Positions 1,480-19,751 are shown, counted from the stretch's first letter. The stretch: 64,000 nt of DNA from an uncultured Pelagibacteraceae bacterium (GCA_902622545.1 CACNQD010000004.1:116465-180464); one strand, 5' to 3'. Program-made: numbers and translations. The notes: generated by a model not told the origin, from the sequence alone.

Positions 1480-1481
1480 AA

Positions 1482-2735: not shown

Positions 2736-2740
2736 AAAAT

Positions 2741-2771
2741 AAAAAAAGGGCGGCTATAAATAACCGCCCTT
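2741..2771 (-). terminator. Intrinsic terminator-like hairpin between potD and potB
   Basis: Minus strand AAGGGCGGUUA-UUUA-UAGCCGCCCUU followed by a U-run. Confidence 0.8.
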
Positions 2772-2807
2772 AATATATTATATAATTTTAGTCTTTAAAA
2801 CTTAAAA

Positions 2808-3923: not shown

Positions 3924-3955
3924 TATTCCTCCGTTTAAACGTTTTTTAAAAGCTA

Positions 3956-3984
3956 ATTACAGCAATATATGAGTAAGGAGTCAA
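3956..3984 (-). promoter_or_regulatory. Candidate internal sigma70 promoter for potD
   Basis: Minus strand TTGACT-17 nt-TGTAAT in the 120-bp potA-potD gap; the -10 is imperfect. Confidence 0.45.
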
Positions 3985-4043
3985 CAGCGCATTTCATTAA
4001 AATATGCCTAATTTAATTAGATAAATTTATTTAAACCTGGGGT

Positions 4044-5132: not shown

Positions 5133-5175
5133 TGGGTAAGGTTTAAAACATTTGTAGGCTAATATTTCAAGTTTT

Positions 5176-6342
5176 TTATTTTACGTGTAAATCTCTTGAA
5201 AAGTTGCATAATAACTCGTTTCCCTCTTCTGTAATCCTTATAGACTCAGATGCTTCAACTCCCCAATCACCAAATTGCATCACGGCTATCATATGATAAC
5301 AAACATTAGGTTTTAAAATTGTCATATCACCTTTAGAAATATTTAGAGTATGTTCTCCCCAATCTGGCGGATATCCTATTCCAATTGAATAACCAGTTCT
5401 AGATTCTTTTTTAATTTTGTATTTATCTAATATTGCCCAAAATTTTTCAGCAACATCATTTGCAGTGTTTCCAGGTTTGCTTGCTTTTATCCCAGCCTCT
5501 AAAGCCTCATTTGTTGCGCTCATTGCATCAATTTTCTTTTGTTCTGGTTTTCCAAGATTAACAGTTCTTGCCATTGGAGCATGGTATCTTTTATAGGTGC
5601 CAGATAACTCTACAACAGTGGCTTCTCCAGTTACGAACTTTTCATCACTTGCTGTTAGATGTGATGCCGACGTACCTTTACCAGTAGGTAAAAGAGTTGC
5701 TATACTTGCATATTCACCACCAAAATCATTTGTTCCTTTGAATAATGATTTCTGTATCTCTGCAACGGCATCGCATTGTCTTACACCTGGATTAATTATG
5801 TCCATCGCTGTCTTCATTGCATTTTCTGAGATAATTGCAGCCTTTTTCATAAAATCTATTTCAGCATTCGATTTAACTACTCTTACCCAATTTACTAACC
5901 TTTCTGAGTCTTTTATTGTGGCGTTGGGCAATCCTTGTTTGAGCTTTTCATAACAGTATGCTGTAAAATAATGTGCGTCCATCTCAACCCCAATTTTAAG
6001 TTTATCCCATTTATTTTTTTTTAATAAATCAACTAGAGCATCGTATGGGTGAGATGGCCAAGTATGAATATATTTTTCATCGTAAATTACTATGTTTTCT
6101 TTTTTTAGATAAGTTTTTATAAATGCTCCACCTGCATCCTGTGCTCTTATAAAACAAATTGGCTCTTCTAAATTAATATGAACAATTACACATTGAGCAT
6201 AATAGAATGACCATGCATCATAACCAGTTAAATAATTAATATTTGCAGTGTCTTGGGATATTAAAAGTTCAATACCTTTTTTTTGCATTGATAATTGAAC
6301 TTTTTTTAGTCGTTCTTTGTATTCATTTTTAGAAAAGCTCAT
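5176..6342 (-). CDS. M24-fold hydrolase of the ectoine hydrolase (EutD/DoeA) subfamily
   Basis: YLTGYDAWSFY, ELSGTYKRYHAPMART, RTGYSIGIGYPPDWGE closely match remembered EutD/DoeA motifs. Confidence 0.75.
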   Translation of the reverse strand: MSFSKNEYKERLKKVQLSMQKKGIELLISQDTANINYLTGYDAWSFYYAQCVIVHINLEEPICFIRAQDAGGAFIKTYLKKENIVIYDEKYIHTWPSHPYDALVDLLKKNKWDKLKIGVEMDAHYFTAYCYEKLKQGLPNATIKDSERLVNWVRVVKSNAEIDFMKKAAIISENAMKTAMDIINPGVRQCDAVAEIQKSLFKGTNDFGGEYASIATLLPTGKGTSASHLTASDEKFVTGEATVVELSGTYKRYHAPMARTVNLGKPEQKKIDAMSATNEALEAGIKASKPGNTANDVAEKFWAILDKYKIKKESRTGYSIGIGYPPDWGEHTLNISKGDMTILKPNVCYHMIAVMQFGDWGVEASESIRITEEGNELLCNFSRDLHVK

Positions 6343-6351
6343 ATTTTGATT

Positions 6352-7092
6352 TTAAGAAAATAAACTTCCATAACCTTTTATCGAATTATTTCTATTTATA
6401 TTTTCTAAGGTTTCCCAAATTAAAGCTTGATTACTTGACAAAACAGTCATATTTAATTTTTTTTCTAGCCTTTCAATTATATTTAATACTGGTAATGAGG
6501 TGCAAGATACAAATAGAGCTTCAGCATCTTTGTGATTTATGTTTGACAAAATTTTAAACAATTGATCTTGATCTACTCTCCCAATATCGACATCAGACTC
6601 AATATCAAAATACGTGTTTGAGGTAACTTCAAAATTATTATTTTTAAAGAAGTTTACCACATCATCATTTACACTTTTAATATAGGGAGTTACTATTGAT
6701 ATCTTATTAATGTTCTTCTTCTTTAATGCATTTAAGGCTGCTGTGCTTGGAGCAGTTACTAAAGCATCTGGTTTAGCAATATTAATCTTTTTTTTAATAT
6801 TATCATATCCTGAAACAATTGTTCCTGATGTACAACCATAAACTATGCAATCTATTCTCTCTCCTGGTAGAATATTTTCTGTTACAGATGTAATTTTATT
6901 TGTCATTTTATTTAAGTTTTCAGCTGTAACAGGATTATAATTAGTTATTCTATTAACATAAAGATCAGCATGCACTCTACTAAAGACTTTTAGAAAATCT
7001 TTTTCAATCATCACATCGGTTGCTAAAACGATTAGACCTACTCTTGGGTTTATTTTTTTTATAAAATTGGGTTTAATTTTTTTGGATTTCAT
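6352..7092 (-). CDS. Asp/Glu racemase - maleate isomerase family protein (EutA-like)
   Basis: VGLIVLATD, YGCTSG and FVSCTSL (paired Cys), VLSSNQAL. Confidence 0.8.
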   Translation of the reverse strand: MKSKKIKPNFIKKINPRVGLIVLATDVMIEKDFLKVFSRVHADLYVNRITNYNPVTAENLNKMTNKITSVTENILPGERIDCIVYGCTSGTIVSGYDNIKKKINIAKPDALVTAPSTAALNALKKKNINKISIVTPYIKSVNDDVVNFFKNNNFEVTSNTYFDIESDVDIGRVDQDQLFKILSNINHKDAEALFVSCTSLPVLNIIERLEKKLNMTVLSSNQALIWETLENINRNNSIKGYGSLFS

Positions 7093-7125: not shown

Positions 7126-8358
7126 ATGTTTAATGATTATTATCATAAAAAAATAAAAGCTTATTTAAAAATATTATTATTATCTGTAATATATATTTCT
7201 ATCTTTATATCAAAATCTCATGCTGAAAATCGCAATGAAGTCAAAGTTGGTATTTTACTTGGATTTTCTGGTGTAGTCGAAAGTATAACACCGTCTATGG
7301 CGGATTCTGCTGAGTTAGCATTTAATGAGATATCGAATGATGCAGATCTTTCAAAAAAAATTAAATTTAAAATTCAAAGAGCAGATACAAGTTGCAGCAA
7401 TAAAAATTTAGCAAAAAACTCTGCAACCAAACTAATAAAAGAAGGTATTTCAGCAATTATAGGTGCAGCCTGCCCAGATATTACTATAGAGGTTGCAAAA
7501 AATGTTTCAGTTCCAAAAAAAATATTAATGATTTCACCAGCAGACACATCTGATGAATTAATTAACTTAAAGGATGATGGTTATGTATTTAGGACAACAC
7601 CTCCTAAGCTTAGAGGAAGTCAAATTTTAGCTGACATAACTTCAGATCGTGGAATTAAAAAAGTAGCAATTACTTACAGCAGTAATCAAGACTTTGAGAA
7701 ATTTGCAAGAGCTTACAGTAAAGCACTTAATAAAAATAAAATAGAGACCTCAATAATGATAGCTCATAACAATAATACTAATGATTATTCAAAACATATA
7801 TCAGCCTTAACAGCGGCTGGTGGAGAGGCTCTAGCTGTAATTAGTGATATCAATTTAGGAGGTGATCAAATTATAAAGTCTGTAATGGACACAGGGATGT
7901 TTAGATCATTCATACTGCCAGACAATATGATAGATCCAGAAATAATTGATAAATTTAAGGAAAAAAATTTAAAACAGTCATTTGGTTATGTTCAAGGTCT
8001 TTCTAATTTAGGTTCAGAAAAATTTTTCAACTTAGCTCAAAATTCTGGGATAGATTCATCTAGTCCTTACACAGGTGAATCTTATGATGCTGCAGCCTTA
8101 ATTATACTTTCAAATTTTGCAAAAATTTATTCAAAAGAGAAATCTATTAATAACATAATTTATTCTGTTGCAAATAAGCCAGGTATAAAAATTTTTCCAG
8201 GGGAAATAAAAAAAGCTATAAATATTTTAAGTGAGGGAAAATCGATCAATTACGAAGGCGCAACGGGAGTAGAGTTTGACAAAGTAGGTGATACTTTAGG
8301 TTCATTTGTAGAAGTTGATTTTAATAAGGGTAAATTAAAAAGTAAAAAACTTAGATAG
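7126..8358 (+). CDS. LivJ-like type I periplasmic binding protein, orphan
   Basis: VKVGILLGFSG, IIGAAC, MISPA, FRTTP, GESYDAAA, INYEGATG motifs; no liv permeases nearby. Confidence 0.8.
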   Translation: MFNDYYHKKIKAYLKILLLSVIYISIFISKSHAENRNEVKVGILLGFSGVVESITPSMADSAELAFNEISNDADLSKKIKFKIQRADTSCSNKNLAKNSATKLIKEGISAIIGAACPDITIEVAKNVSVPKKILMISPADTSDELINLKDDGYVFRTTPPKLRGSQILADITSDRGIKKVAITYSSNQDFEKFARAYSKALNKNKIETSIMIAHNNNTNDYSKHISALTAAGGEALAVISDINLGGDQIIKSVMDTGMFRSFILPDNMIDPEIIDKFKEKNLKQSFGYVQGLSNLGSEKFFNLAQNSGIDSSSPYTGESYDAAALIILSNFAKIYSKEKSINNIIYSVANKPGIKIFPGEIKKAINILSEGKSINYEGATGVEFDKVGDTLGSFVEVDFNKGKLKSKKLR

Positions 8359-8362
8359 AGTA

Positions 8363-9139
8363 TTAATAGCTAAATTTAGTTGATGGATATTTTCTTTTTT
8401 TAACTTCATTCTTAAACTTTCTTACTGCTGAGTCTATATGTTTTCGAATATCACAGAAACTCTTAACAAATTTAATTGAAGTTAAATTTAAACCGATTAA
8501 GTCATCAGTAACCAAGACTTGGCCATCACAATTAACTGAGGAGCCTATTCCGATTGTTGGTATTTTTAATGCTTTTGTAATTTCTTTAGCTAAGCTTGTT
8601 TCAATACACTCTAAGACAATTGAGAATACTCCATTTTTTTGAAGTAACAAAGCATCTGCTAAAAGATTTTTTCTTTCTTTAGATGTTTTACCTTTGTGTC
8701 TAAATTTACCTTTGTGACTTTGTGGTAAAATTCCTAAATGGCCCATCACATTTATTTTATTTTTTCTTAAATATTTAATAATGTCTATTATTTTTTTTCC
8801 TCCCTCTAATTTTACAGCGTCTGCTTTAGTATATTTGATTATCTTTTTTGCGTTTTTAAGTGCTTCATTTTTATTTCTATAGGTATTGAAGGGCATATCT
8901 ACAACCATTAAGCTTTTTTTAACTCCCAACCTAACACTTTTAGAATGTTCAATTATCATATTTAAATTAACTTTTTTAGTCGTATCAAATGAGTATAAAA
9001 CTGAACCAAGAGAGTCACCTACTAAAATTATATCAGTATACTTATCTAAAATTTCAGAAATATTTTTTGAATAAGAGGTTAAACAAATAATTTTGGTTTT
9101 ATTTTTTTTTTTTAATATTTTTTTAATTTTCAAATTCAT
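8363..9139 (-). CDS. panB: 3-methyl-2-oxobutanoate hydroxymethyltransferase
   Basis: ILVGDSLG, VVDMPF, VKLEGG, MGHLGILPQ, TIGIG, DGQVLVTDD. Confidence 0.96.
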   Translation of the reverse strand: MNLKIKKILKKKNKTKIICLTSYSKNISEILDKYTDIILVGDSLGSVLYSFDTTKKVNLNMIIEHSKSVRLGVKKSLMVVDMPFNTYRNKNEALKNAKKIIKYTKADAVKLEGGKKIIDIIKYLRKNKINVMGHLGILPQSHKGKFRHKGKTSKERKNLLADALLLQKNGVFSIVLECIETSLAKEITKALKIPTIGIGSSVNCDGQVLVTDDLIGLNLTSIKFVKSFCDIRKHIDSAVRKFKNEVKKRKYPSTKFSY

Positions 9140-10101
9140 AAAACTTTATTAAGAATGTTATTTGTTTCCATATCATATAGCTTATATAAATTTTCAGCAT
9201 CTTTTAACTCAATTTCTTTAAATTTTATTTTTGAGCCAGGAGGAATTTGTACCAGCTTGTCATAATCTGCACTTATAGTCATGCCAATCTTAGGATAACC
9301 TCCTATTGTCCCATGGTCAGACAATAGAATAATCGGTTGACCATCTGCAGGAACTTGTATTGTGCCCTTTACCAAACCCTCAGATTTAATATTTGTATCT
9401 TTAATATTATTTAATCTTGATCCATTTAATCTCATACCCATTCTATCTGTAAGTTTTGTTACTTCATAATTTTTTGAAAAAAAGTCTTTTGTTGACTGCT
9501 TAGAAAAATAATCAAAATTTGTTCCCTTAATTACTCTTATAAATTCAATCTTAGAATTTAAAATATTTAATTTTCTAAATGGTGAGTGATTTGGATTATT
9601 TAGCAAAATCTCTTGACCATCTTTTAACTTATCGCCATTATTAGGTCCCACTTTAGCTCTTGTTGTTGTAGAATAACTATTCCAAACTTTATCTAATTTA
9701 AAACCACCGTTTATTGAAAAATATCCATAAACAGACTTATTTGTTGATACAATATCTATGGTATCACCGTCATCTATCTCAATTGTTTTGTAACATTCGC
9801 CATTATTTTGAGTTTTATTATTTTTTAATATTTTAAAATTAACATTGCCAGTGATCACAATATTTCTTGACTCTCCAAAATATTTTAATTGTGGTCCTTG
9901 CAATGCAAATTCAATAACTGCATCATTTTTATCATTATTAATTAGTTTATTAGCAATTAAAAAATTTCTCCTATCCATTGCCCCGCTAAATGGTAAACCA
10001 ATATGGTAAAGGTTTTCTCTTCCATTATCTTGAAAAGTTGAGTTTAAACCTCCTCTTATTACTTTAAAATAATCATTTGTCATAAAATTTTGTAAATTCA
10101 T
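9136..10101 (-). CDS. pxpC: 5-oxoprolinase subunit C
   Basis: TFQDNGR, SGAMD, DRMGMRL, GTIQVPADGQPIILLSDHGTIGGYPKI. Confidence 0.9.
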   Translation of the reverse strand: MNLQNFMTNDYFKVIRGGLNSTFQDNGRENLYHIGLPFSGAMDRRNFLIANKLINNDKNDAVIEFALQGPQLKYFGESRNIVITGNVNFKILKNNKTQNNGECYKTIEIDDGDTIDIVSTNKSVYGYFSINGGFKLDKVWNSYSTTTRAKVGPNNGDKLKDGQEILLNNPNHSPFRKLNILNSKIEFIRVIKGTNFDYFSKQSTKDFFSKNYEVTKLTDRMGMRLNGSRLNNIKDTNIKSEGLVKGTIQVPADGQPIILLSDHGTIGGYPKIGMTISADYDKLVQIPPGSKIKFKEIELKDAENLYKLYDMETNNILNKVL

Positions 10102-10750
10102 TTTTTTTTATTTCATAAAATGTTATCTGGTCACCTGGGCTTATTAAATTTGGTTTTTTTTTATTTTTAGGATCAAAAATATTTAATGGGGTTTTACCGA
10201 TTATATTCCAGCCTCCTGGACTTTCGTAAGTATAAATATTGCAAAATTGTTCAGTTATACCAATTGAGCCTTTTGGAACTTTTACTCTAGGAGTTTCCAG
10301 TCTGTCTAGTTGGATCTTTTTATCTAAATCTCCCAAAAAAGGCATACCTGCTATAAATCCAGTCATATAACAAAAATAATTTTTATTTAAAAATAAATTT
10401 ATTATTTCATTTTTAGACTTTTGAAATTTTTTTTCAATTCTTTGTATATCTATAGAAAATTCTTCATCACAACACATTGGAATATTTATTTTTTGACCTA
10501 TATGTTTATTTTTAATGTTAAAACTCATGTTTAATATTTCTTGCTTTAAATAATCATAATTTGTTTCATTAAGGTCAAATGTAATTATCAATTTATTATA
10601 TGAAGGAGATAAATTAGTAACACCTTTTAAATTTTTATCTTTTAATATTTTAAAATATTTAATGACTTTTGAATTTATTTCTTGATTGACATCACTTCCA
10701 AAGTCACAATAGATCGCTGCGTCACCAAGATTTACTATATTTTTAATCAT
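10073..10750 (-). CDS. pxpB: 5-oxoprolinase subunit B
   Basis: LGDAA, PSYNKL, MTGFIAGMPFLG, RLETPR, SPGGWNIIG. Confidence 0.9.
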   Translation of the reverse strand: MIKNIVNLGDAAIYCDFGSDVNQEINSKVIKYFKILKDKNLKGVTNLSPSYNKLIITFDLNETNYDYLKQEILNMSFNIKNKHIGQKINIPMCCDEEFSIDIQRIEKKFQKSKNEIINLFLNKNYFCYMTGFIAGMPFLGDLDKKIQLDRLETPRVKVPKGSIGITEQFCNIYTYESPGGWNIIGKTPLNIFDPKNKKKPNLISPGDQITFYEIKKNEFTKFYDK

Positions 10751-10754
10751 ACAA

Positions 10755-10763
10755 TGTTATACT
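10755..10763 (+). promoter_or_regulatory. Extended -10 element (TGnTATACT) in the 27-bp pxpB/pxpA divergent gap
   Basis: TGTTATACT on +; overlapping TATAAC/TAACAT on -. Confidence 0.5.
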
Positions 10764-10777
10764 TCATGAAGATTTTT

Positions 10778-11551
10778 ATGGAAATTAATATTAATTGTGA
10801 TTTAGGTGAAAAATCTGAACATCATTCTACAAAGTACGACCCAGATTTACTTAAGATTGTTAACTCAGCAAATATTGCTTGTGGTTTTCATGCAGGTGAT
10901 GAAAAAACAATGAAAAATACAATAGAAATTTCAATACAAAATAATGTAAGTATAGGTGCACATCCCTCATTTAATGATCCCGAAAATTTTGGTAGGAAAA
11001 GACAAAACCTACCAGAAAATGAAATAAAAAAACTTATAATTGATCAATACGAAACACTACAAAGAATAGCCGAAAATCTTGGAACAAAGGTTACACATAT
11101 AAAACCCCATGGAGCCTTAAATAATATGGCATGTGAAGATTTAAATTTATCAAAAATATTAGCAGAAACTATTTATCATATTGATAAAAATTTAATTTAT
11201 TTAGTACCCACAGGATCAAAGATGGAAGAGGCAGCTAGAAAATTTGATATGAAAATAGCATGTGAAATATTTGCTGATAGAAATTATGAGGATGATGGCA
11301 ATCTGGTATCAAGAGTAAAGGAGAATGCAATCATACATGACCCAGAAAAATGTAAGAAACATGTTTTAGAAATGGTTAGAAACCAGTCTATCAACTGTAT
11401 GTCTGGAAAGAAAATTAAGTGTGAGATAGACTCTATTTGTATTCATGGTGATAATATTGAGTCACTTGAGACTGCAAAACAGGTTAAAAAAGTTCTTGAA
11501 GAAAATAATATTTACCTTAAACCATTAAATTACCTAAAAAAATTTTTATAA
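10778..11551 (+). CDS. pxpA: 5-oxoprolinase subunit A (LamB/YcsF)
   Basis: MEININCDLGE start at 10778 (the ORF-track start overlaps pxpB); SANIACGFHAGD, GAHPS, HIKPHGALNN, EIFADRNY, SICIHGD. Confidence 0.93.
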   Translation: MEININCDLGEKSEHHSTKYDPDLLKIVNSANIACGFHAGDEKTMKNTIEISIQNNVSIGAHPSFNDPENFGRKRQNLPENEIKKLIIDQYETLQRIAENLGTKVTHIKPHGALNNMACEDLNLSKILAETIYHIDKNLIYLVPTGSKMEEAARKFDMKIACEIFADRNYEDDGNLVSRVKENAIIHDPEKCKKHVLEMVRNQSINCMSGKKIKCEIDSICIHGDNIESLETAKQVKKVLEENNIYLKPLNYLKKFL

Positions 11552-11556
11552 TATTT

Positions 11557-12069
11557 ATGAAAAAATTTTTATTAATAATTTTAATTAGTTTTTACAGTTT
11601 GCATGCGTTTGCAGCTGGACCCTCTCCTACTGACAATAAAAGAAATACTACAGCGAGCACAGGTGTTAAAGCTGCAACTAAATTTGATATAGGGTTGAAA
11701 TGGGTATCTAAAGCAAAAAAATTTGAAAAAAAGAATAAATTATCTAAAGCTAAAAATGCGTATGAAAATGCAATCAAAAAACTCCTGGAAGCTAATTCAA
11801 AAAGTCCAAGCAATCCAGATATTTTGAATCTCTTGGGTTTTTCTCACAGAAAGATCGGGGATTATGAAAGTGCTGAAATATATTATTCGCTTGGTTTAGA
11901 AATTGATCCTGAACATATTGGTATTAATGAATACATGGGTGAATTATTTGTTGTGACTAATAGAATGGATGAAGCAAAAAAAAGGTTGGCAGTTCTAAAA
12001 AATTGTAATTGCAAAGAATACGATGAACTTAAGCAAGTGATTGAAGGAACTAAGCAATCTAAATATTAG
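11557..12069 (+). CDS. Exported tetratricopeptide-repeat protein
   Basis: Signal peptide (..HAFA); TPR-like NPDILNLLGFSHRKIGDYESAEIYY and LEIDPEHIGINEYMGELF. Confidence 0.8.
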   Translation: MKKFLLIILISFYSLHAFAAGPSPTDNKRNTTASTGVKAATKFDIGLKWVSKAKKFEKKNKLSKAKNAYENAIKKLLEANSKSPSNPDILNLLGFSHRKIGDYESAEIYYSLGLEIDPEHIGINEYMGELFVVTNRMDEAKKRLAVLKNCNCKEYDELKQVIEGTKQSKY

Positions 12070-13376
12070 TTAATATTTTTTATCATTTGATCTGGTAACC
12101 ACATTGCTATTTCGGGAAAAATAATCAAAATTAATGTTGCAAATATCATTAGCAAAAATAATGGAAAAGCACTCTTTGCAATAAAACCCATATCTTTACC
12201 AGCCATTCCTTGAAGTACAAACAAATTAAAACCAACGGGAGGTGTAATTTGTGCCATTTCAACTACTACTACAAGAAATATTCCAAACCAAATCATGTCA
12301 AAACCTGCTTGTCTAATCATAGGCTCTATTATTGCCATGGTAAGAACTACAGCTGATATTCCATCCAAAAACATTCCAAGAATAATATAAAATATCATCA
12401 GAACAAAAATTAGAATGTATGGTGAAAGTTCAAGACTATTTATCCATACTGCTAAATTTCTCGGTAAACCCGTAAAACCCATAGCCAGAGATAAAAAAGC
12501 TGAACCAGCTAATATAAATGAAATCATACATGAAGTAATTGTAGCCCCTAAAATTGATTTTTTAAAAGTACTCCAAGTTAAACTATTCTGAAAATAAGAC
12601 AGAATTAATGAACCTACTACACCAAGAGATGCCGCTTCTGTAGCAGTGGCAATGCCGGTATATATTGAACCAATCACAGAAATAATTAAAAGTATTACAG
12701 GAATTAATTGACTGGATTTTTTTATTTTTTCAATAAAGTTGTATTTTTTAGAAATAATTGGCATTTGTTTTTTGTTCAATAAAGACCAAAAAATAACATA
12801 GCTCATAAAAATTAAGGCAATCATTATTCCAGGTATAATTCCAGCTATAAATAATTTCGCTATAGACTCTTGAACTGTTACTCCATATATAATCAGAATA
12901 ATAGATGGAGGGATTAGTAACCCTAAAGTTCCTGAACCTGCCAAACTACCTAATAAAATTTTTTCAGGATAATTTCTTTTCCTTAATTCTGGGATTGACA
13001 TTTTTCCAACTGTTGCAACAGTAGCAGCAGATGAACCAGAGATTGCTGCAAATAAAGCACACCCAACAACATTGACATGTATTAAACCTCCGGGTAATTT
13101 TTGCATCCAAGGAGACAAACCCTCAAATAGATTTTCTGACAATTTTGTTCTAAATAATATTTCCCCCATCCATACAAATAATGGTAAAGCAGTTAAAGTC
13201 CATGAAGAAGACATCCCCCAAATAGTAGTTGCCATTGCATCTCCAACTGGTCGTGATGTGAATAAAGTCATTGCTATAGTGGAGACACCGATCATGCTCA
13301 ATGCAACCCAAATGCCGGTACTAAGAAATAATAGAAGAACAGAAATAAAAAATAAGCTTAGAAATATCTCAGTCAT
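12066..13376 (-). CDS. dctM: TRAP transporter large permease
   Basis: LPLFVWMGE, FAAISGSS, GTLGLLIPPS, ITPPVGFNLFV. Confidence 0.92.
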   Translation of the reverse strand: MTEIFLSLFFISVLLLFLSTGIWVALSMIGVSTIAMTLFTSRPVGDAMATTIWGMSSSWTLTALPLFVWMGEILFRTKLSENLFEGLSPWMQKLPGGLIHVNVVGCALFAAISGSSAATVATVGKMSIPELRKRNYPEKILLGSLAGSGTLGLLIPPSIILIIYGVTVQESIAKLFIAGIIPGIMIALIFMSYVIFWSLLNKKQMPIISKKYNFIEKIKKSSQLIPVILLIISVIGSIYTGIATATEAASLGVVGSLILSYFQNSLTWSTFKKSILGATITSCMISFILAGSAFLSLAMGFTGLPRNLAVWINSLELSPYILIFVLMIFYIILGMFLDGISAVVLTMAIIEPMIRQAGFDMIWFGIFLVVVVEMAQITPPVGFNLFVLQGMAGKDMGFIAKSAFPLFLLMIFATLILIIFPEIAMWLPDQMIKNIN

Positions 13377-13854
13377 TATTATAAAAATATTTTAACAAAT
13401 GATGAAACACGCATACAAAAAGTATTGTAGATCCAATTGCGAGGGGTGTTTGAGGAATCCATATTAGTATTTCGTCAGCACCTTCACTTCTTTCTTTAAA
13501 CTTGTATGAAATTACAAGCATTTTAGTGAAATAAAATGCAGTATAACCTGAAAAAATTGTTGCAACTAATAAACACCATATTTCAAATATTTTTCTTAAT
13601 TTTTTATTTAGTTTTTCTAAAAACAAAGTAATTCTTATATGTCCCCCTTCGCTAAATGTATATGAAAGAGCAAAAAATGTAGAAGCAGCCATACAATAAC
13701 CCGAATATTCAGACAAACCTCTAATATAAAAACCGAATATCCTTGAACAAACTCCTAACAAAATAAAAATTGCTATAAAAATTAAAAAAAAAGCAGCTAC
13801 ATACCCAGAAAATCTATAAATTTTTTCTAAGTAAAAATTGATTTTATTTAACAT
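13369..13854 (-). CDS. dctQ: TRAP transporter small permease
   Basis: Four TM segments; GGHIRITL motif; lies between dctP and dctM. Confidence 0.9.
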   Translation of the reverse strand: MLNKINFYLEKIYRFSGYVAAFFLIFIAIFILLGVCSRIFGFYIRGLSEYSGYCMAASTFFALSYTFSEGGHIRITLFLEKLNKKLRKIFEIWCLLVATIFSGYTAFYFTKMLVISYKFKERSEGADEILIWIPQTPLAIGSTILFVCVFHHLLKYFYNND

Positions 13855-13860
13855 ATGACT

Positions 13861-13888
13861 AAAGGCCGTTAATAAAGTAACGGCCTTT
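13861..13888. terminator. Perfect hairpin between dctP and dctQ (terminator or mRNA-stabilising stem)
   Basis: AAAGGCCGTTA-ATAAAG-TAACGGCCTTT, 11-bp stem. Confidence 0.8.
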
Positions 13889-13900
13889 ATAAAAGATTAT

Positions 13901-14869
13901 TTAATAAGCAGATAAAACTGACTCACCTCTGGCACCAGCTTTCTTGGTCCATTCAGATGCCATTTGAGATCCAACTTTTTCAAAATGCTGTTTTAAAGCC
14001 GAATTAACTTTACCAACACTCATACCTGCATTAGCTAATGCCTTCTTATCGTTTTTATTTCCCATTTTTGAAAGTTGCCAGCCTTTTCTTTCAGCAAGAG
14101 CTGCTTCCTTCATTATCAAGTCTTGAGTTTCTTTATCTAATTTATTCCAAGCCTTTTTATTAGCGATAATCATATTTTTTGGAAACCATGCTGCTATATC
14201 ATAAAAATATTTAACTCCATTTTCCCAGATCTTACTATTCTTTCCAGTTGTTGGTGAAGTAATCATACTTTCAACTGCGCCTGTAGAAAATGCTTGAGAT
14301 ATTTCTGCTGCTTCAATTTTAGTTGGAGCCATACCTGTAAGCTCAGCGATTCTAATTGTAGCACCATTATAAGCTCTAAACTTTAATCCTTTTAAATCTG
14401 CAACACTATTTATCTCTTTTTTAGAATATAAACCTTGAGCAGGCCAAGGCACTGCATATAAAAATACTAAACCTTTAGCATCTAAACTTTTTGCTATTTC
14501 AGCTTTTGATGCTTTGTATAATTTCATAGCATCCGTGTAAGATGTAGCTAAAAAAGGTAAAGAGTCGATTTCAAGTAACGGATCTTCTTTACCTAATGCC
14601 GACATAAATCTCTCACCAATAGGGGCTTGTCCTGTTCTTACTGCTCTAAAAATTTCTCCACCTTTGAATAATGATCCACCTGGGTGTGTAACTATAGTTA
14701 GTTTACCACCACTTTTTTCAGTTACATTTTTTGCAAATTCCGTTGCATTTGCAGAATGAAAATTACCTGCACCATAAGCTAATGCCATATCCCATTTTTC
14801 AGCATATGATACATTTGAAAGTAAAAGCAGTGATGTTAATATTGAAATAAAATATTTTATTGCTCTCAT
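13901..14869 (-). CDS. dctP: TRAP substrate-binding protein, DctP6/DctP7-like (pyroglutamate-binding) subfamily
   Basis: Signal peptide; KWDM.AY, GSLFKG.EI.RAV, DSLPFLAT, WPAQG, LKFRAY, AWFPKN, AERKGW. Confidence 0.85.
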   Translation of the reverse strand: MRAIKYFISILTSLLLLSNVSYAEKWDMALAYGAGNFHSANATEFAKNVTEKSGGKLTIVTHPGGSLFKGGEIFRAVRTGQAPIGERFMSALGKEDPLLEIDSLPFLATSYTDAMKLYKASKAEIAKSLDAKGLVFLYAVPWPAQGLYSKKEINSVADLKGLKFRAYNGATIRIAELTGMAPTKIEAAEISQAFSTGAVESMITSPTTGKNSKIWENGVKYFYDIAAWFPKNMIIANKKAWNKLDKETQDLIMKEAALAERKGWQLSKMGNKNDKKALANAGMSVGKVNSALKQHFEKVGSQMASEWTKKAGARGESVLSAY

Positions 14870-14984
14870 TTCACCTCCTCTTTTTAAAAATATATTTGAT
14901 TATTTATTTAATGTTAAATCAACAGAAAAATTAACTACTTTTAATTGAAAAATCCTAATAATCATTTAATATCTTTGAATTCTA

Positions 14985-15611
14985 ATGGAGCAATCACTAT
15001 TTTTTGAGCAATCTTTAATTCTTCTACAAATAATATTCATTGATATTATTTTGGCTGCAGATAACGCAATAATAATTGGCTTAATAGCTGCTAACTTTGT
15101 TCCAAAACATAGAAGACAAATTATACTTTGGGGTGTAGCAGGTGCATTAATTTTTAAAGTTATTTTTGCAATTTTTGCTACTTATTTATTTAAGTTTTAT
15201 TTTATTAAAATTTTAGGTGGGTTACTATTAATTTGGATAGTTTATGATTTAAGAAAAGACTTATTTGAAATCAAGAAAGTAAAATCACCAACAAAAGTTT
15301 CTAAAGAGCCTTCATATATACAAAGTGTTTATAAAGTTTTATTTGCAGATATAACAATTAGTTTTGATAATGTTATTGGTGTTGTTGGAGCTTCCAAAGG
15401 TTATTTTGGTTTTATGATTTTTGGTTTAGTTTTGTCAGTTATTTTAACCGGGGCCCTTGCAACTTATCTTGCAAACTATATTCAAAAACATTTATGGATT
15501 GCTTATATAGGTTTAGCATTTATTTTACTTGTTGCTATTCAATTAATAATAGGTGGATTAGTGGACTTAGAAATTTTACGAGTAAATGAACAATTTAAGA
15601 AATATTTTTAA
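14985..15611 (+). CDS. TerC/YjbE family membrane protein
   Basis: IDIILAADNAIII, KILGGLLLIW, ADITISFDNVIGV. Confidence 0.85.
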   Translation: MEQSLFFEQSLILLQIIFIDIILAADNAIIIGLIAANFVPKHRRQIILWGVAGALIFKVIFAIFATYLFKFYFIKILGGLLLIWIVYDLRKDLFEIKKVKSPTKVSKEPSYIQSVYKVLFADITISFDNVIGVVGASKGYFGFMIFGLVLSVILTGALATYLANYIQKHLWIAYIGLAFILLVAIQLIIGGLVDLEILRVNEQFKKYF

Positions 15612-15620
15612 TTATTAAAT

Positions 15621-16313
15621 ATGAAAAAGTTTTTAATAATTGTTTTGTTTATTTTTTCAACACAGTTAGTGCAAAGTCAAGAATGTAATTTAAATCCAGA
15701 GCGAGGAAGTAAAAATTATATTATTGGCTATGGATCTTTAATGGATAAAGAGTCGAGAATTAGAACAAATAAATCGGCTTTTATAGTAAAACCTATTTTA
15801 ATTAAAGGTTTTGAGAGAACTTGGGGCCTTCAGGGGAGAATGTACAAAATTACTTTTTTAACTATCATTAAAAAAGAAAACTCATCTGTTAATGCAGTTT
15901 ATTACCCAGTTTCTATAAAGGACTTGAATAAGACCGATAGGAGAGAGAGCGGATATTGTAGAGTAAAAGTTGAAGGTAAAGACTTAAGTTTCTATGGAAA
16001 AAAAATTAAAACTAAAAATAAAAACTTTTGGGTTTATGCAGCTAATCCTGAAAAAATAAAAAAACCAAGTAAAAGTCATCCGATTGTTCAATCATATGTC
16101 GATTTATTTATAGGTGGTTGTTTTCAGATTAAGGAGAGATATAAAATCAATGAATTTCCAAAACAGTGTGTAGAGACAACTACTGAATGGTCAAAGCACT
16201 GGGTAAATGACAGAGTTCATGCTAGAAGACCATTCCTAATACCAAATTTTTATAAGATAGATAAACTTTTATCAAATTTCTTTGATTACTATTTGGATAA
16301 TAAATACCAATAA
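15621..16313 (+). CDS. Gamma-glutamylcyclotransferase (GGCT/ChaC-like) with N-terminal signal peptide
   Basis: YIIGYGSLM loop and DRRESGY (catalytic Glu position); N-terminus MKKFLIIVLFIFSTQLVQS. Confidence 0.75.
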   Translation: MKKFLIIVLFIFSTQLVQSQECNLNPERGSKNYIIGYGSLMDKESRIRTNKSAFIVKPILIKGFERTWGLQGRMYKITFLTIIKKENSSVNAVYYPVSIKDLNKTDRRESGYCRVKVEGKDLSFYGKKIKTKNKNFWVYAANPEKIKKPSKSHPIVQSYVDLFIGGCFQIKERYKINEFPKQCVETTTEWSKHWVNDRVHARRPFLIPNFYKIDKLLSNFFDYYLDNKYQ

Positions 16314-16949
16314 TCACATTTTATACTCAAAATTTTGTGAGGTTTCATTAACTCCAATCTCAATAGCTCCGTTACTTAAATGAAATTTTCTAGCCATATC
16401 AGTAAGTGGTGAGAGTGTTACCAATCTATTTAAATGATTTGTTTTTTTTATTTTTTTGAAAACTTCTTTTACAATTAATCTTCCACCACCTCTTTTTTTT
16501 GACCAAACAGTGTATGCAATAGCAATTTGGCCTACTTTAAAATCTCTATTAATACTTTGTAGATAGGCATCTTTGCTCATCATATCTAATTCTTCTACAG
16601 TTTTTGGAATGCTATTTGTAAATGCAAAGCACATCACTGCATGTATCTCGTCTTGATACTTCACACCATATATTTTCCTTCCAAAACTTGTTCTAAAATC
16701 ATTGTCTAGTTCTGGTCGTACTGGATCCTCAGTAGTATTACAGTTTGGCAACTCTATAATTTCAGCACCTTTTACCCAGTCAAAGAAATTTTTTACAGAT
16801 TTTCCAATATCAATTTTTTTACCCTTAATGGAAGTATTAAATTTTTTTGATATTAGCTCTTTATTTTTTGTAATTGATCGCTTAAATATTTTGCTTTTTC
16901 TTTTTAAAGCGACTTTTATTTTTCTATTTAGTGGTTTTTTTTTAGTCAT
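16314..16949 (-). CDS. Hypothetical protein with a minimal malonyl-CoA-decarboxylase/GNAT-like domain
   Basis: IAYTVWS, GGGRLIVKEV, LVTLSP, ARKFHLSNGA; basic low-complexity N-terminus. Confidence 0.55.
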   Translation of the reverse strand: MTKKKPLNRKIKVALKRKSKIFKRSITKNKELISKKFNTSIKGKKIDIGKSVKNFFDWVKGAEIIELPNCNTTEDPVRPELDNDFRTSFGRKIYGVKYQDEIHAVMCFAFTNSIPKTVEELDMMSKDAYLQSINRDFKVGQIAIAYTVWSKKRGGGRLIVKEVFKKIKKTNHLNRLVTLSPLTDMARKFHLSNGAIEIGVNETSQNFEYKM

Positions 16950-16975
16950 TTATTAAATTTATAAACTAAATTATT

Positions 16976-17752
16976 TTAATTAGATTGTGACTTATTTAAC
17001 CTTTTTATTATTCTATTAGATGTTTTTTCAAGTAATCTATAAAAACCAGCTTTTCGTAAATCCTTAACAGCCTGCTCATTTAAGCCACCGGGTGTTTGTG
17101 ATACTTTGACTAGTCTTTTTAGATTTTTTTTATGATTAAAAGCATCTTCAGATAAAGCAAGGAATAGGGATGATATATATTTTTGTGCATTTTCTTTTTT
17201 TATTCCTCTATTAACTAACCAATTAGATAAAGAGTATAAAATTTCATAAAAAGGGGCCATCATTGCAGAGGTAGTCCAAAAATTTAGTGACAATTTCTCA
17301 TTGCTAATTTCAACTGTAGATCCTAATTTATCAAAAAACTTTTTAACCTTATTGTTTGGTGGATAGATTGGTACTGGTCCTTTGCATAACGCAATTGGTG
17401 GTAAAGGTATTGCTCTAACAATATTTGATTTTAATCCTGTAATTTTTTTTAATTGAGTTAAATTAATTGTTGAAATAAAACTAATTATCATCTTATTTTT
17501 ATTAAATTTTAAATTTTTTAAAATTTTGTTTCCCACAGCTGGTGTTACCGCAAGAAAAATCCATTCAGATTTATTAATAATATCTTGATTATCTTTAATT
17601 ATTTTAATTTTTTTACTCTTAAATTTTAAAATTCTTGAAATTTTTTTATTTCTTTCAGATACAAATATTTTTGAAATTTGTAATTTCGAGTTAATTATAC
17701 CTGTTATAACTGCTTTTGTTATTTGACCCGTTCCTATAAAACCTAATTTCAT
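16976..17752 (-). CDS. proC: Pyrroline-5-carboxylate reductase
   Basis: GFIGTGQIT; VSQTPGGLNEQA. Confidence 0.85.
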   Translation of the reverse strand: MKLGFIGTGQITKAVITGIINSKLQISKIFVSERNKKISRILKFKSKKIKIIKDNQDIINKSEWIFLAVTPAVGNKILKNLKFNKNKMIISFISTINLTQLKKITGLKSNIVRAIPLPPIALCKGPVPIYPPNNKVKKFFDKLGSTVEISNEKLSLNFWTTSAMMAPFYEILYSLSNWLVNRGIKKENAQKYISSLFLALSEDAFNHKKNLKRLVKVSQTPGGLNEQAVKDLRKAGFYRLLEKTSNRIIKRLNKSQSN

Positions 17753-17770
17753 AATAAATTAATATAGTTG

Positions 17771-18385
17771 TTAATAATTTTGTGTAAATCCAATAAAAAT
17801 AGCAATTAAAATCAATACACACGCCGAAATTGAGCTTATTATTCTTGGATTTGCATTTATCCAATGTAAAAGTTTTTTAGCTAATATTGCGTAACCAATA
17901 AGTGAGATAAAATCTAAAATCATATAAGTGATAATAAGAATTATAAATTGAGAAACATAATTTTCATTAAAGTTTATAAACTGCGGAAAAATTAATGGAA
18001 AAAATATCCATGCTTTAGGACTAGTACCTGCTACAATAAATCCATCCTTAAAAAACGATATTAAAGTCTTTGATTTAATTGAAGTGTTAGTAAAGTTTTT
18101 TGGGCTTGATTTATAAATATCATAAGAAAGATAGAATAAATAAACTACACCAAACCACTTTAAAATATTTAAAGTTTCAGCATTATCAGCAATAAAAGAA
18201 TCTATAAAAAAAATTACAAGAGTAGCTTGTATTAAATTTGCAGTAACATCACCTAAGGCAATCCAAATGCATTTTTTAGTACCATAATTCATTGCATAAG
18301 AAATAATAACAATTCTTGGGGTCCCAGGTGTTATAAATAAAAAAAAAATAATTTGTAAAAATAAAAAATAATCTAAGGGAAGCAT
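17771..18385 (-). CDS. LysE/RhtB family translocator
   Basis: FITPG, ALGD, YLFYL, SPKAWIFF; hydrophobic profile. Confidence 0.88.
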   Translation of the reverse strand: MLPLDYFLFLQIIFFLFITPGTPRIVIISYAMNYGTKKCIWIALGDVTANLIQATLVIFFIDSFIADNAETLNILKWFGVVYLFYLSYDIYKSSPKNFTNTSIKSKTLISFFKDGFIVAGTSPKAWIFFPLIFPQFINFNENYVSQFIILIITYMILDFISLIGYAILAKKLLHWINANPRIISSISACVLILIAIFIGFTQNY

Positions 18386-19409: not shown

Positions 19410-19751
19410 TTAAAAGAAAATATAATAAATAATCCAAAATATAAGCGTATACTCAAAACAACTTTTAAAAAGTATCAATTGCTTTTCACTAAATTTTTGT
19501 ATCAAAAATTTTTTAAAAAGAAAAAAAATTAAATTAACTAATAAAATTCCAATAACTAAACCAATAATCGTAAGTTTGATTGAAAAGTTTTTATATCCAA
19601 AATAAATAGCTGCAATTAATGTAAACCAAGATACTTTTGTTATAAATATTTTAAAAATAAGCCCAGCTTTTTTACTAAATACAGATTGTGTTTTTATTAA
19701 TGAATAAGACCAGATAATTCCTATTAAAAAACTTGTAAACTTTAAAATCAT
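19410..19751 (-). CDS. Small hypothetical membrane protein (starts MILKFTSF)
   Basis: 113 aa, about 4 hydrophobic segments; 4-nt overlap with the upstream amt fusion. Confidence 0.7.
   Translation of the reverse strand: MILKFTSFLIGIIWSYSLIKTQSVFSKKAGLIFKIFITKVSWFTLIAAIYFGYKNFSIKLTIIGLVIGILLVNLIFFLFKKFLIQKFSEKQLILFKSCFEYTLIFWIIYYIFF

What the first reader, a model, noticed from the sequence alone, without database searches (positions are those of the whole stretch)
9136..16313. Putative complete pyroglutamate / gamma-glutamyl scavenging system: exported GGCT + TRAP + PxpABC
Seen within ~7 kb: pxpC, pxpB, pxpA, an exported TPR protein, dctM-dctQ-dctP, a TerC protein and a GGCT with a signal peptide. 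Known: GGCT/ChaC enzymes release 5-oxoproline from gamma-glutamyl compounds such as glutathione; PxpABC converts 5-oxoproline to glutamate using ATP; Bordetella DctP6/DctP7 TRAP proteins bind pyroglutamate. Inference: periplasmic cleavage, TRAP uptake and cytoplasmic ring opening form a C+N acquisition route from dissolved glutathione and gamma-glutamyl compounds. PxpABC is usually viewed as damage repair. I do not know of this linked system being described in SAR11.
Basis: partly seen in the sequence, partly recalled or inferred. Interest (0 to 1): 0.8.

Follow-up and report, generated by a model that had tools for sequence, protein, structure and literature searches.

The report
SAR11 pyroglutamate uptake cluster plus neighbouring GGCT
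The genes are real: a transporter and an enzyme set that let this marine SAR11 bacterium take up pyroglutamate and turn it into glutamate, a route already reported for SAR11 in 2024. The neighbouring exported gamma-glutamyl cyclotransferase sits beside them in only one narrow lineage, so it is not shown to be part of that route.

Summary
All nine genes are present as described: pxpC, pxpB, pxpA, an exported TPR protein, dctMQP, a TerC/YjbE protein and a GGCT-fold protein with a signal peptide.

**TRAP + PxpABC: well supported, but not new.**
- The DctP matches the pyroglutamate-bound Bordetella DctP6/DctP7 structures and 6WGM at E 1e-77 to 1e-82. Other TRAP binding proteins score no better than 1e-18.
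- dctPQM-pxpBCA single-strand operons exist in Leisingera and Azospirillum.
- Clifton et al. (Nature 2024) already reported high-affinity pyroglutamate uptake next to pxpABC in SAR11, and an "alternative transporter" in other SAR11.

**GGCT: real enzyme, weak link.**
- It is a credible exported enzyme, with a conserved signal peptide, YGSL motif, catalytic Glu and four invariant cysteines, and it has the GGCT fold.
- It is homologous to Francisella's periplasmic, glutathione-degrading ChaC (FTN_0599).
- Its link to the pyroglutamate block is confined to one narrow clade. Four close relatives lack dctPQM but keep terC-GGCT.
- Other SAR11 subclades keep terC-dctPQM-(TPR)-pxpA-pxpBC without GGCT.
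- 60 more distant GGCT loci have no pxp or terC within 10 kb, and only one has even a partial dctM-like match.

**Verdict:** a known pyroglutamate module plus a separately placed periplasmic GGCT. The three-step "system" is possible but unsupported. Genome-wide co-occurrence could not be tested.

The parts
9136..10101 (-). pxpC, 5-oxoprolinase subunit C (CT_A_B domain)
   Evidence: Pfam PF02626, E 2.6e-70. TIGR00724 scores 244.8 bits, above its cut-off. The PxpC equivalog model scores 196 bits, below its cut-off of 500.
10073..10750 (-). pxpB, 5-oxoprolinase subunit B (CT_C_D domain); overlaps pxpC by 29 nt
   Evidence: Pfam PF02682, E 4.2e-56. TIGR00370 PxpB scores 135.9 bits, just below its cut-off of 145.6.
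10778..11551 (+). pxpA, 5-oxoprolinase subunit A (LamB/YcsF). The mechanical ORF starts at 10682, but the homology starts at residue 33 (MEININ...)
   Evidence: Pfam PF03746, E 1.4e-87. NF003814 scores 303 bits against a cut-off of 226.
11557..12069 (+). Small exported TPR protein. It is conserved between dctM and pxpA in most SAR11 versions of the block
   Evidence: TPR_1/TPR_2 hits. Signal-peptide-like N-terminus MKKFLLIILISFYSLHAFA|AG. Present in L083, L084, L089, L097 and L099; absent in L087 and L098.
12066..13376 (-). dctM, TRAP large permease
   Evidence: PF06808, E 1.4e-82. TIGR00786 scores 378 bits, above its cut-off.
13369..13854 (-). dctQ, TRAP small permease
   Evidence: PF04290, E 4e-19.
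13901..14869 (-). dctP, TRAP solute-binding protein of the pyroglutamate-binding DctP6/DctP7 group
   Evidence: PDB sequence search: 2PFZ E 8.8e-82, 6WGM E 1.1e-79, 2PFY E 2.1e-77; the next TRAP SBP scores 6.7e-18. About 45% identity to 2PFZ and 6WGM. It has the highest contig depth of any gene here in metatranscriptome assemblies.
14870..14984 (.). 115-bp divergent intergenic region between dctP and terC. The roughly 50 bp nearest terC are retained in relatives that lack dctMQP
   Evidence: Alignment A2. Best promoter-like matches lie at 14917-14889 (-) and 14945-14972 (+); such matches are not enriched over shuffled sequence. No Rfam riboswitch was found.
14985..15611 (+). TerC/YjbE-family membrane protein. 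It is the constant divergent neighbour of dctP in all SAR11 contexts seen
   Evidence: PF03741, E 1.3e-40. TIGR03717 YjbE scores 154 bits, above its cut-off. Synteny.
15621..16313 (+). Exported GGCT-fold enzyme of the Francisella FTN_0599 'ChaC' family. It lies 9 bp downstream of terC and is a neighbour of the block only in this clade
   Evidence: NF049903, E 6.6e-48. Conserved signal peptide; invariant YGSL(37-40), E109, and C22/C113/C167/C183. AF2 model pLDDT 87.6. Foldseek top hits are human GGCT 3CRY/2RBH, ChaC2 and yeast ChaC.

Best explanation
The region holds two separate things.

**(1) A pyroglutamate (5-oxoproline) acquisition module.** The periplasmic DctP binds free L-pyroglutamate. 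DctQM imports it using the ion gradient. Cytoplasmic PxpABC opens the ring with ATP to give glutamate, which supplies both carbon and nitrogen. In SAR11 this module travels as a fixed block: terC | dctPQM | (TPR) pxpA | pxpBC.

**(2) A separately placed, Sec-exported, disulfide-bonded gamma-glutamyl cyclotransferase.** It is homologous to Francisella's periplasmic ChaC. It most likely splits periplasmic gamma-glutamyl peptides (glutathione or gamma-Glu-amino acids) into 5-oxoproline plus the released peptide or amino acid. In this one SAR11 subclade it lies just downstream of terC and is probably co-transcribed with it. Its 5-oxoproline could be salvaged by the TRAP system, but it is not an obligate or conserved part of that system.

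**Shown:** gene identities, fold, conserved motifs, and the synteny patterns.
**Inferred:** substrates, localisation, and any hand-off between the two.
For: **DctP.** It is far closer to 2PFZ, 2PFY and 6WGM than to any other solved TRAP SBP (E 1e-77 to 1e-82 against 1e-18 or weaker). 2PFZ/2PFY are the pyroglutamate-bound DctP6/DctP7. The arginine in LKFRAY aligns with LKWRAY (2PFZ) and IKFRSY (6WGM).

**TRAP-Pxp linkage.**
- dctPQM-pxpB-pxpC-pxpA lie contiguous on one strand in Leisingera and Azospirillum.
- Thermus has dctPQM-MBL-pxpA.
- Every SAR11 context retrieved from the DctP side has dctPQM next to pxpA/pxpBC.

**Literature.**
- Pyroglutamate is bound by the SAR11 protein SAR11_0655 with Kd < 5 nM. 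That gene lies next to pxpABC, and the paper notes an alternative transporter in other SAR11 (PMC11485210).
- pxpTABC is needed for growth on 5-oxoproline in C. glutamicum (PMC13274462).

**GGCT as an enzyme.**
- Signal peptide in all 23 homologues; invariant YGSL, E109 and four Cys.
- GGCT fold.
- FTN_0599-family HMM match at E 6.6e-48.
- FTN_0599 is periplasmic, DsbA-dependent, and supports growth on external glutathione (PMC7340319).

**Separateness of GGCT.**
- 4 of 16 close relatives lack dctMQP through a clean indel but keep TPR-terC-GGCT.
- In the DctP 85-86% clades, the gene beyond terC is panB, a 143-aa ORF, thioredoxin or glyoxalase, and never GGCT.
- 60 distant GGCT loci have no pxp or terC within 10 kb even at E 1e-3, and only one (L070) has a partial dctM-like match.
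- GGCT contexts differ between SAR11 subclades.

**Transcription.** All these genes are represented in marine metatranscriptome assemblies, with dctP the most abundant.
Against: - No binding, transport or enzyme assay exists for these exact proteins.
- The PxpB and PxpC equivalog scores fall below NCBI's curated cut-offs.
- The GGCT score (163 bits) is far below the FTN_0599 model's cut-off (480). It has a cleavable signal peptide rather than Francisella's membrane anchor, so substrate transfer from Francisella is only an analogy.
- An accessory gene landing exactly beside the pyroglutamate block, 9 bp after terC, is unlikely under purely random placement. This leaves room for real coupling in this clade.
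- Only 10-kb neighbourhoods were tested, not whole-genome co-occurrence.
- That Clifton's 'alternative transporter' is this TRAP is inferred from their citing 2PFY/2PFZ/6WGM. Their Supplementary Note 6 could not be read.
Confidence: 0.62

Rival explanations
1. GGCT, TRAP and PxpABC form one dedicated three-step scavenging system: periplasmic cleavage of glutathione or gamma-glutamyl compounds, TRAP uptake of the released 5-oxoproline, and cytoplasmic ring opening.
For: - The three functions lie within 7 kb, and GGCT sits 9 bp after terC. terC shares a 115-bp divergent control region with dctP.
- The chemistry fits: GGCT-fold enzymes release 5-oxoproline, and the DctP is of the pyroglutamate-binding type.
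- The arrangement is kept in 12 of 16 close relatives.
- All the genes are transcribed in situ.
Against: - Adjacency is confined to one narrow clade (GGCT at least 90% identical).
- 4 of 16 of those relatives have lost, or never gained, dctMQP while keeping GGCT.
- All other SAR11 versions of the TRAP-Pxp block lack GGCT.
- 60 distant GGCT loci lack pxp and terC nearby, and only one has a partial dctM-like match.
- GGCT homologue clusters are far rarer than DctP homologue clusters: 386 at E <= 1e-3, against more than 5000 at E <= 1e-40.
Confidence: 0.22
2. The exported GGCT exists mainly to free the other half of gamma-glutamyl peptides, for example Cys-Gly from glutathione. That would supply reduced sulfur and glycine, as in Francisella. 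The 5-oxoproline would be a by-product, and the position next to the TRAP genes incidental.
For: - Homology to Francisella FTN_0599, which supports growth on glutathione as the cysteine source.
- GGCT is a stand-alone gene in variable contexts. In HIMB114-type loci it lies next to a Cys/Met-metabolism PLP enzyme, and in L091/L092 next to a MAPEG protein.
- From general knowledge, not tested here: SAR11 needs exogenous reduced sulfur and glycine.
Against: - No Cys-Gly transporter or dipeptidase was seen next to GGCT in any locus.
- Substrate specificity is unknown. The best structural matches are to human GGCT, which does not use glutathione, rather than to ChaC.
- The Pfam ChaC family does not match.
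Confidence: 0.3
3. PxpABC here only repairs endogenous 5-oxoproline, the TRAP system imports some other small carboxylate, and the adjacency is inherited gene order.
For: - pxpABC persists in relatives that lack dctMQP.
- DctP6-like TRAP loci in Ruegeria and Tistrella have no pxp genes nearby.
Against: - E values of 1e-77 to 1e-82 to three structures cited as pyroglutamate binders.
- Same-strand dctPQM-pxpBCA operons occur in two other orders.
- SAR11 is independently shown to bind pyroglutamate at nanomolar affinity through another transporter next to pxpABC.
Confidence: 0.07

Closest known systems
SAR11 (Ca. P. ubique HTCC1062) L-pyroglutamate ABC transporter SAR11_0655 with pxpABC SAR11_0662-0664 (Clifton et al., Nature 2024, PMC11485210)
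   Same: Same organism group and same logic: a high-affinity periplasmic binding protein for L-pyroglutamate sits next to PxpABC, giving glutamate. The paper also says other SAR11 use an alternative transporter.
   Different: Here the transporter is a TRAP system (DctPQM), not an ABC system. The LivK-like SBP in this window (7126-8358) does not match 8WCH. The paper's main text mentions no GGCT, TerC or TPR partner.
Bordetella pertussis DctP6/DctP7 (PDB 2PFZ, 2PFY) and the TRAP SBP 6WGM
   Same: Same SBP subfamily: E 1e-77 to 1e-82 and about 45% identity. DctP6 and DctP7 were crystallised with 5-oxoproline, and the KD of DctP7 is 0.3 uM (as summarised in PMC13274462).
   Different: In Bordetella the nearby 5-oxoprolinase is of the eukaryotic type, and utilisation was not demonstrated. 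Here the partner is PxpABC. Ligand binding by this protein is untested. That 6WGM is a marine-metagenome pyroglutamate binder is from my memory of the PDB title.
dctPQM-pxpBCA operons of Leisingera thetidis pBMJM1_4 and Azospirillum argentinense AbAZ39_p1 (seen here)
   Same: A DctP6-type TRAP system sits directly beside all three pxp genes.
   Different: Those are single-strand operons without TerC, TPR or GGCT. The SAR11 block is split into divergent and convergent units.
Corynebacterium glutamicum pxpTABC / B. subtilis pxpABC with YcsG/PxpG (PMC13274462)
   Same: [quoted passage not shown]
   Different: Those use a secondary transporter of another family and a GntR regulator, PxpR. No regulator is present in the SAR11 block.
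Francisella ChaC (FTN_0599), a periplasmic glutathione-degrading GGCT (Ramsey et al. 2020, PMC7340319)
   Same: Homologous (NF049903, E 6.6e-48), extracytoplasmic, and cysteine-rich in line with DsbA dependence. Both have the GGCT fold with a YGSL motif and a catalytic Glu.
   Different: The score is well below the family cut-off. The SAR11 protein has a cleavable signal peptide instead of an N-terminal membrane anchor. It comes from a free-living oligotroph rather than an intracellular pathogen. Its substrate is untested.

Membership tests
Prokaryotic 5-oxoprolinase PxpABC | Three subunits: PxpA (LamB/YcsF), PxpB (CT_C_D) and PxpC (CT_A_B) | tested here: met
   Pfam E values of 1.4e-87, 4.2e-56 and 2.6e-70. 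The PxpA subfamily model scores above its cut-off. The PxpB and PxpC equivalog models score below theirs.
Prokaryotic 5-oxoprolinase PxpABC | The three genes are clustered | tested here: met
   pxpC and pxpB overlap. pxpA diverges from pxpB with only 27 bp between the start codons. The same layout is seen in all SAR11 loci examined.
Prokaryotic 5-oxoprolinase PxpABC | ATP-dependent conversion of 5-oxoproline to glutamate | not testable with these tools
   Needs an enzyme assay.
Pyroglutamate-binding DctP subfamily (DctP6/DctP7/6WGM) | Closer to the pyroglutamate-bound structures than to TRAP SBPs of other specificity | tested here: met
   2PFZ 8.8e-82, 6WGM 1.1e-79 and 2PFY 2.1e-77, against 6.7e-18 for the next hit.
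Pyroglutamate-binding DctP subfamily (DctP6/DctP7/6WGM) | The conserved TRAP arginine that clamps the ligand carboxylate | tested here: met
   LKFRAY in the query aligns with LKWRAY (2PFZ) and IKFRSY (6WGM). The role of this arginine comes from general knowledge of TRAP SBPs. Other ligand contacts were not checked.
Pyroglutamate-binding DctP subfamily (DctP6/DctP7/6WGM) | Measured binding of L-pyroglutamate | not testable with these tools
   Needs DSF or ITC.
Francisella-type periplasmic GGCT (NCBIfam NF049903, FTN_0599 family) | HMM score above the curated cut-off | tested here: not met
   163.5 bits against a cut-off of 480 (E 6.6e-48). The protein is therefore a homologue, not a member of the narrowly defined family.
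Francisella-type periplasmic GGCT (NCBIfam NF049903, FTN_0599 family) | GGCT fold with a YGSL motif and a catalytic glutamate | tested here: met
   Y37 G38 S39 L40 (preceded by invariant G36) and E109 are invariant in 23 homologues. Foldseek gives 3CRY/2RBH at E 4e-7 with target TM-score 0.70.
Francisella-type periplasmic GGCT (NCBIfam NF049903, FTN_0599 family) | Extracytoplasmic location and dependence on disulfide bonds | tested here: inconclusive
   By sequence there is a signal peptide with an AXA-type cleavage site in all homologues, and four invariant Cys. This fits the feature but is not experimental. It is a cleavable signal rather than a membrane anchor.
Francisella-type periplasmic GGCT (NCBIfam NF049903, FTN_0599 family) | Degrades external glutathione | not testable with these tools
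   Needs an enzyme assay or genetics.
Canonical ChaC (Pfam PF04752) | Match to the ChaC family model | tested here: not met
   Only PF06094 (GGACT) matched, at 24.7 bits.
Proposed three-module GGCT + TRAP + PxpABC system | Conserved co-localisation of all three modules across lineages | tested here: not met
   All three occur together only in the clade with GGCT at least 90% identical. Elsewhere they separate.
Proposed three-module GGCT + TRAP + PxpABC system | Genome-wide co-occurrence of the modules | not tested
Only 10-kb flanks are held.

The most novel reading that the evidence does not exclude
In this SAR11 subclade the exported ChaC-like GGCT cleaves dissolved glutathione or gamma-glutamyl peptides in the periplasm. 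The cell would then use both halves. The 5-oxoproline would go through the adjacent TRAP/PxpABC route to glutamate. The Cys-Gly or released amino acid would supply reduced sulfur and glycine, two nutrients SAR11 cannot make. That would be a glutathione-scavenging pathway in the ocean's most abundant heterotroph, assembled by placing GGCT downstream of terC under the control region it shares with dctP.
Probability: 0.2. Interest if true: 0.7.

Novelty: new member of a known kind. Interest (0 to 1): 0.35.

Why it matters
Pyroglutamate as an ocean nutrient for SAR11 was a surprise when it was reported in 2024. This window shows the TRAP-based version of that route. It also shows that the route is a fixed block (terC-dctPQM-TPR-pxpA-pxpBC) that is present or absent between very close relatives, which helps in reading metagenomes and ecotype differences.

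The exported GGCT has, as far as the searchable literature shows, not been discussed for SAR11. If it degrades dissolved glutathione, it would bear on how a sulfur- and glycine-dependent oligotroph obtains those nutrients. As it stands, that is a hypothesis supported only by homology to Francisella ChaC and by one clade-specific adjacency.

Tried and rejected
- **Riboswitch upstream of terC.** TerC genes often carry a yybP-ykoY element. An Rfam E-value scan of 8000-18000 found only a weak CRISPR-DR22 chance hit inside dctM.
- **LivK-like SBP as the SAR11_0655 pyroglutamate ABC binding protein.** A PDB sequence search with 7126-8358 gave only weak LivJ-type hits and no 8WCH. Rejected.
- **Sequence search of GGCT against PDB.** No meaningful hit. 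A structure prediction plus Foldseek was needed to identify the fold.
- **Supplementary Note 6 of Clifton et al.** Not held as text. The bioRxiv version also defers to a supplement.
- **TPR hits near GGCT in HIMB114-type loci.** These looked like a conserved link. The TPR gene there is most likely the paralogue that lies between guaB and guaA in other SAR11 loci, not the pxp-associated one. This rests on context and gene size; the neighbouring 526-aa ORF was not annotated.
- **A conserved partner of GGCT outside SAR11.** Neighbour clustering gave almost only singletons.
- **Metatranscriptome evidence for co-expression.** The second showed that all the genes are transcribed. Contig fragments and assembler depths cannot show co-transcription or co-regulation.
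- **Promoter and terminator scan.** No enrichment over shuffled sequence, and no terminator between terC and GGCT.

Full report
**Observation**

The window is about 29% G+C. Its closest relatives are single-cell and metagenome genomes of Pelagibacteraceae, that is SAR11.

| Gene | Coordinates | Strand |
|---|---|---|
| pxpC | 9136-10101 | - |
| pxpB | 10073-10750 | - |
| pxpA (homology begins at 10778) | 10778-11551 | + |
| TPR protein, 170 aa, with signal peptide | 11557-12069 | + |
| dctM | 12066-13376 | - |
| dctQ | 13369-13854 | - |
| dctP | 13901-14869 | - |
| TerC/YjbE-family protein | 14985-15611 | + |
| GGCT-like protein, 230 aa | 15621-16313 | + |

The genes form alternating divergent and convergent units rather than one operon. 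GGCT starts 9 bp after terC with no terminator-like site between them. terC and dctP diverge from a 115-bp spacer.

**The transporter and PxpABC**

The DctP matches three PDB entries far better than any other TRAP binding protein: 2PFZ at E 8.8e-82, 6WGM at 1.1e-79 and 2PFY at 2.1e-77. The next hit scores 6.7e-18. Identity to 2PFZ and 6WGM is about 45%.

2PFZ and 2PFY are Bordetella DctP6 and DctP7, which were crystallised with 5-oxoproline (summarised in PMC13274462). The arginine that TRAP binding proteins use to hold the ligand carboxylate is retained: LKFRAY in the query aligns with LKWRAY in 2PFZ.

Independent support for a functional TRAP-Pxp link comes from other lineages:
- On a Leisingera thetidis plasmid, dctP-dctQ-dctM-pxpB-pxpC-pxpA lie contiguous on one strand.
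- The same is true on an Azospirillum chromid.
- Thermus thermophilus has dctPQM-MBL hydrolase-pxpA.
- Ruegeria and Tistrella have the TRAP genes without pxp nearby. The link is frequent, not universal.

**Prior knowledge**

Clifton et al. (Nature 2024, PMC11485210) screened the binding proteins of Ca. P. ubique HTCC1062.
- They found that the ABC binding protein SAR11_0655 binds L-pyroglutamate with Kd < 5 nM.
- They noted pxpABC (SAR11_0662-0664) in the same locus.
- They proposed use of exogenous pyroglutamate as a glutamate source.

Their list of referenced structures includes 2PFY, 2PFZ and 6WGM.

PxpABC is also established as catabolic, not only as damage repair. It is required for growth on 5-oxoproline in B. 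subtilis and C. glutamicum (PMC13274462).

**The GGCT-like protein**

It has no sequence-level PDB match. It matches the NCBIfam model built around Francisella FTN_0599 at E 6.6e-48, scoring 163 bits against a cut-off of 480.

An alignment of 23 homologues at 39-83% identity shows:
- an N-terminal signal peptide with an AXA-type cleavage site in every sequence;
- an invariant GYGSL motif (G36-L40, containing the family's YGSL) and an invariant E109, which are the GGCT-family substrate-binding motif and catalytic glutamate;
- four invariant cysteines (C22, C113, C167, C183), as expected for a disulfide-bonded periplasmic protein.

The AlphaFold model is confident, with pLDDT 87.6 and pTM 0.84. 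Its best structural matches are human GGCT (3CRY and 2RBH, E about 4e-7, target TM-score 0.70), followed by ChaC2 and yeast ChaC.

Francisella FTN_0599 is experimentally periplasmic, membrane-associated and DsbA-dependent. Together with GGT, it allows growth on external glutathione as the cysteine source (PMC7340319). An exported, glutathione-degrading GGCT is therefore a known kind of enzyme, and the SAR11 protein is a diverged homologue of it. No paper in the searchable library links GGCT or ChaC with SAR11.

**Is GGCT part of the pyroglutamate system?**

A scan of one genome per GTDB species returned 79 loci with a GGCT homologue and up to 10 kb of flank on each side. I searched them with all the window's proteins.

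*Close relatives.* Only the clade whose GGCT is at least 90% identical to the window has pxp, TRAP or terC nearby.
- 12 of the 16 informative loci show the window's arrangement.
- Four loci (L004, L012, L014, L016) lack dctMQP and read TPR-terC-GGCT.
- The junction is clean. Sequence matching the TPR end joins directly to the roughly 50 bp upstream of terC (alignment A2).

*Distant loci.* Twelve further SAR11 loci at 55-63% identity, including HIMB114 and CODY6, and about 48 non-SAR11 loci (Nitrotoga, Legionella, cyanobacteria and others) have no pxp or terC within 10 kb. This holds even at tblastn E 1e-3. One partial dctM-like hit in L070 is the only exception.

*GGCT's own neighbours differ between SAR11 subclades.*
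- L091/L092: groES/EL on one side, and MAPEG and hisG on the other.
- An LD12-like contig: a deacetylase-like gene and a BT1 transporter.
- HIMB114: a P-loop kinase and a Cys/Met-metabolism PLP enzyme.
- Outside SAR11 the neighbours are essentially all singletons.

*From the transporter side.* DctP homologues at 85-86% identity are very abundant in marine metagenomes; one cluster alone has 3180 member sequences. Contigs carrying them always show terC | dctPQM | (DoxX) (TPR) pxpA | pxpBC | EamA. The gene beyond terC is panB, a 143-aa ORF, thioredoxin or glyoxalase, and never GGCT. Only the 98-99% DctP clade has GGCT there.

The conserved, mobile unit is therefore terC-TRAP-(TPR)-PxpABC. GGCT belongs to the flank in one lineage.

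**What this does and does not show**

It shows that GGCT is not a conserved component of the pyroglutamate module.

It does not exclude that, in this clade, 5-oxoproline released by GGCT in the periplasm is picked up by the TRAP system. Four points bear on this:
- Probable co-transcription with terC from a region shared with dctP would fit such use.
- The chance of random placement exactly here is small.
- Against that, this locus is demonstrably variable, with a TRAP indel and a block that sits in different places. Accessory genes tend to gather in such spots.

**Expression**

Contigs from four marine metatranscriptome assemblies cover pxpA/B, dctP, terC and GGCT. dctP has by far the greatest depth in one run: 55-183, against 2-28 for terC and 0-16 for GGCT. 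This shows transcription in situ and the usual high expression of binding proteins. Contig depth cannot establish co-regulation.

**Verdict**

TRAP plus PxpABC is a pyroglutamate acquisition route; I put this at about 0.85, and it is already known in outline. The exported GGCT is a real and probably active periplasmic cyclotransferase (about 0.8). The single "complete system" reading is not supported by comparative genomics (about 0.2).

I rate the whole as a new member of known kinds, of moderate-to-low interest. The most interesting open possibility is glutathione scavenging by SAR11.

Noticed in passing
window 12066-14930 versus L004:9240-9335, L012, L014, L016: The dctMQP cassette (about 2.85 kb) is a clean presence/absence polymorphism among very close Pelagibacteraceae relatives. 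In the relatives that lack it, the TPR stop codon region joins directly to the roughly 50 bp upstream of terC. pxpABC is kept in those genomes.
   Followed up: partly
window 14985-15611; L083, L087, L089, L097-L100: A TerC/YjbE-family gene is the constant divergent neighbour of dctP in every SAR11 version of the pyroglutamate block, whatever lies beyond it. No yybP-ykoY riboswitch was detected. It is absent from the Leisingera and Azospirillum operons. Its role in this block is unexplained.
   Followed up: partly
window 11557-12069; L083:12814-13305, L089:13197-13679, L099:11199-11681: A small exported TPR protein sits between dctM and pxpA in most SAR11 subclades; it is missing in L087 and L098. 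Some versions add a DoxX gene next to it. A second TPR paralogue lies between guaB and guaA in the same genomes.
   Followed up: partly
window 10682-10778: The start codons of pxpB (10750, - strand) and pxpA (10778, + strand) are only 27 bp apart. The mechanical pxpA ORF extends upstream into pxpB. Any promoters for this divergent pair must therefore lie inside coding sequence.
   Followed up: no
window 19748-21985 (-): A 745-aa protein fuses an ammonium transporter (Amt, E 5e-108) to a C-terminal SpoIIE/PP2C phosphatase domain (E 4e-27). This looks like a transporter-sensor fusion.
   Followed up: no
window 625-7092: A PotABC-like ABC transporter lies next to a 371-aa ORF (2808-3923) with no NCBIfam match and to DoeA-like (ectoine hydrolase family, 450 bits, below the equivalog cut-off) and EutA-like genes. 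This may be an uptake and degradation cluster for an ectoine-like or related N-compound. A LivK-like orphan binding protein follows at 7126-8358.
   Followed up: no
window 23241-24128 (-): A 295-aa protein matches the inverse-autotransporter beta-domain (IAT_beta, E 2e-26). This is unusual for a streamlined planktonic bacterium.
   Followed up: no
L024 and L026 (both from MAG N-SamH-20apr23-026): One Pelagibacterales MAG carries two GGCT paralogues (55% and 59% identical to the window's protein) on different contigs.
   Followed up: no
L091:8001-9081 and L092: In another SAR11 lineage the GGCT gene lies back-to-back with a MAPEG-family gene. MAPEG is the family of membrane glutathione transferases, so this is a second hint of a glutathione connection.
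   Followed up: no
window 16314-16949 (-): A 211-aa lysine-rich protein is found only in the close clade. It has just a weak, sub-threshold match to the malonyl-CoA decarboxylase C-terminal domain. Its function is unknown.
   Followed up: no
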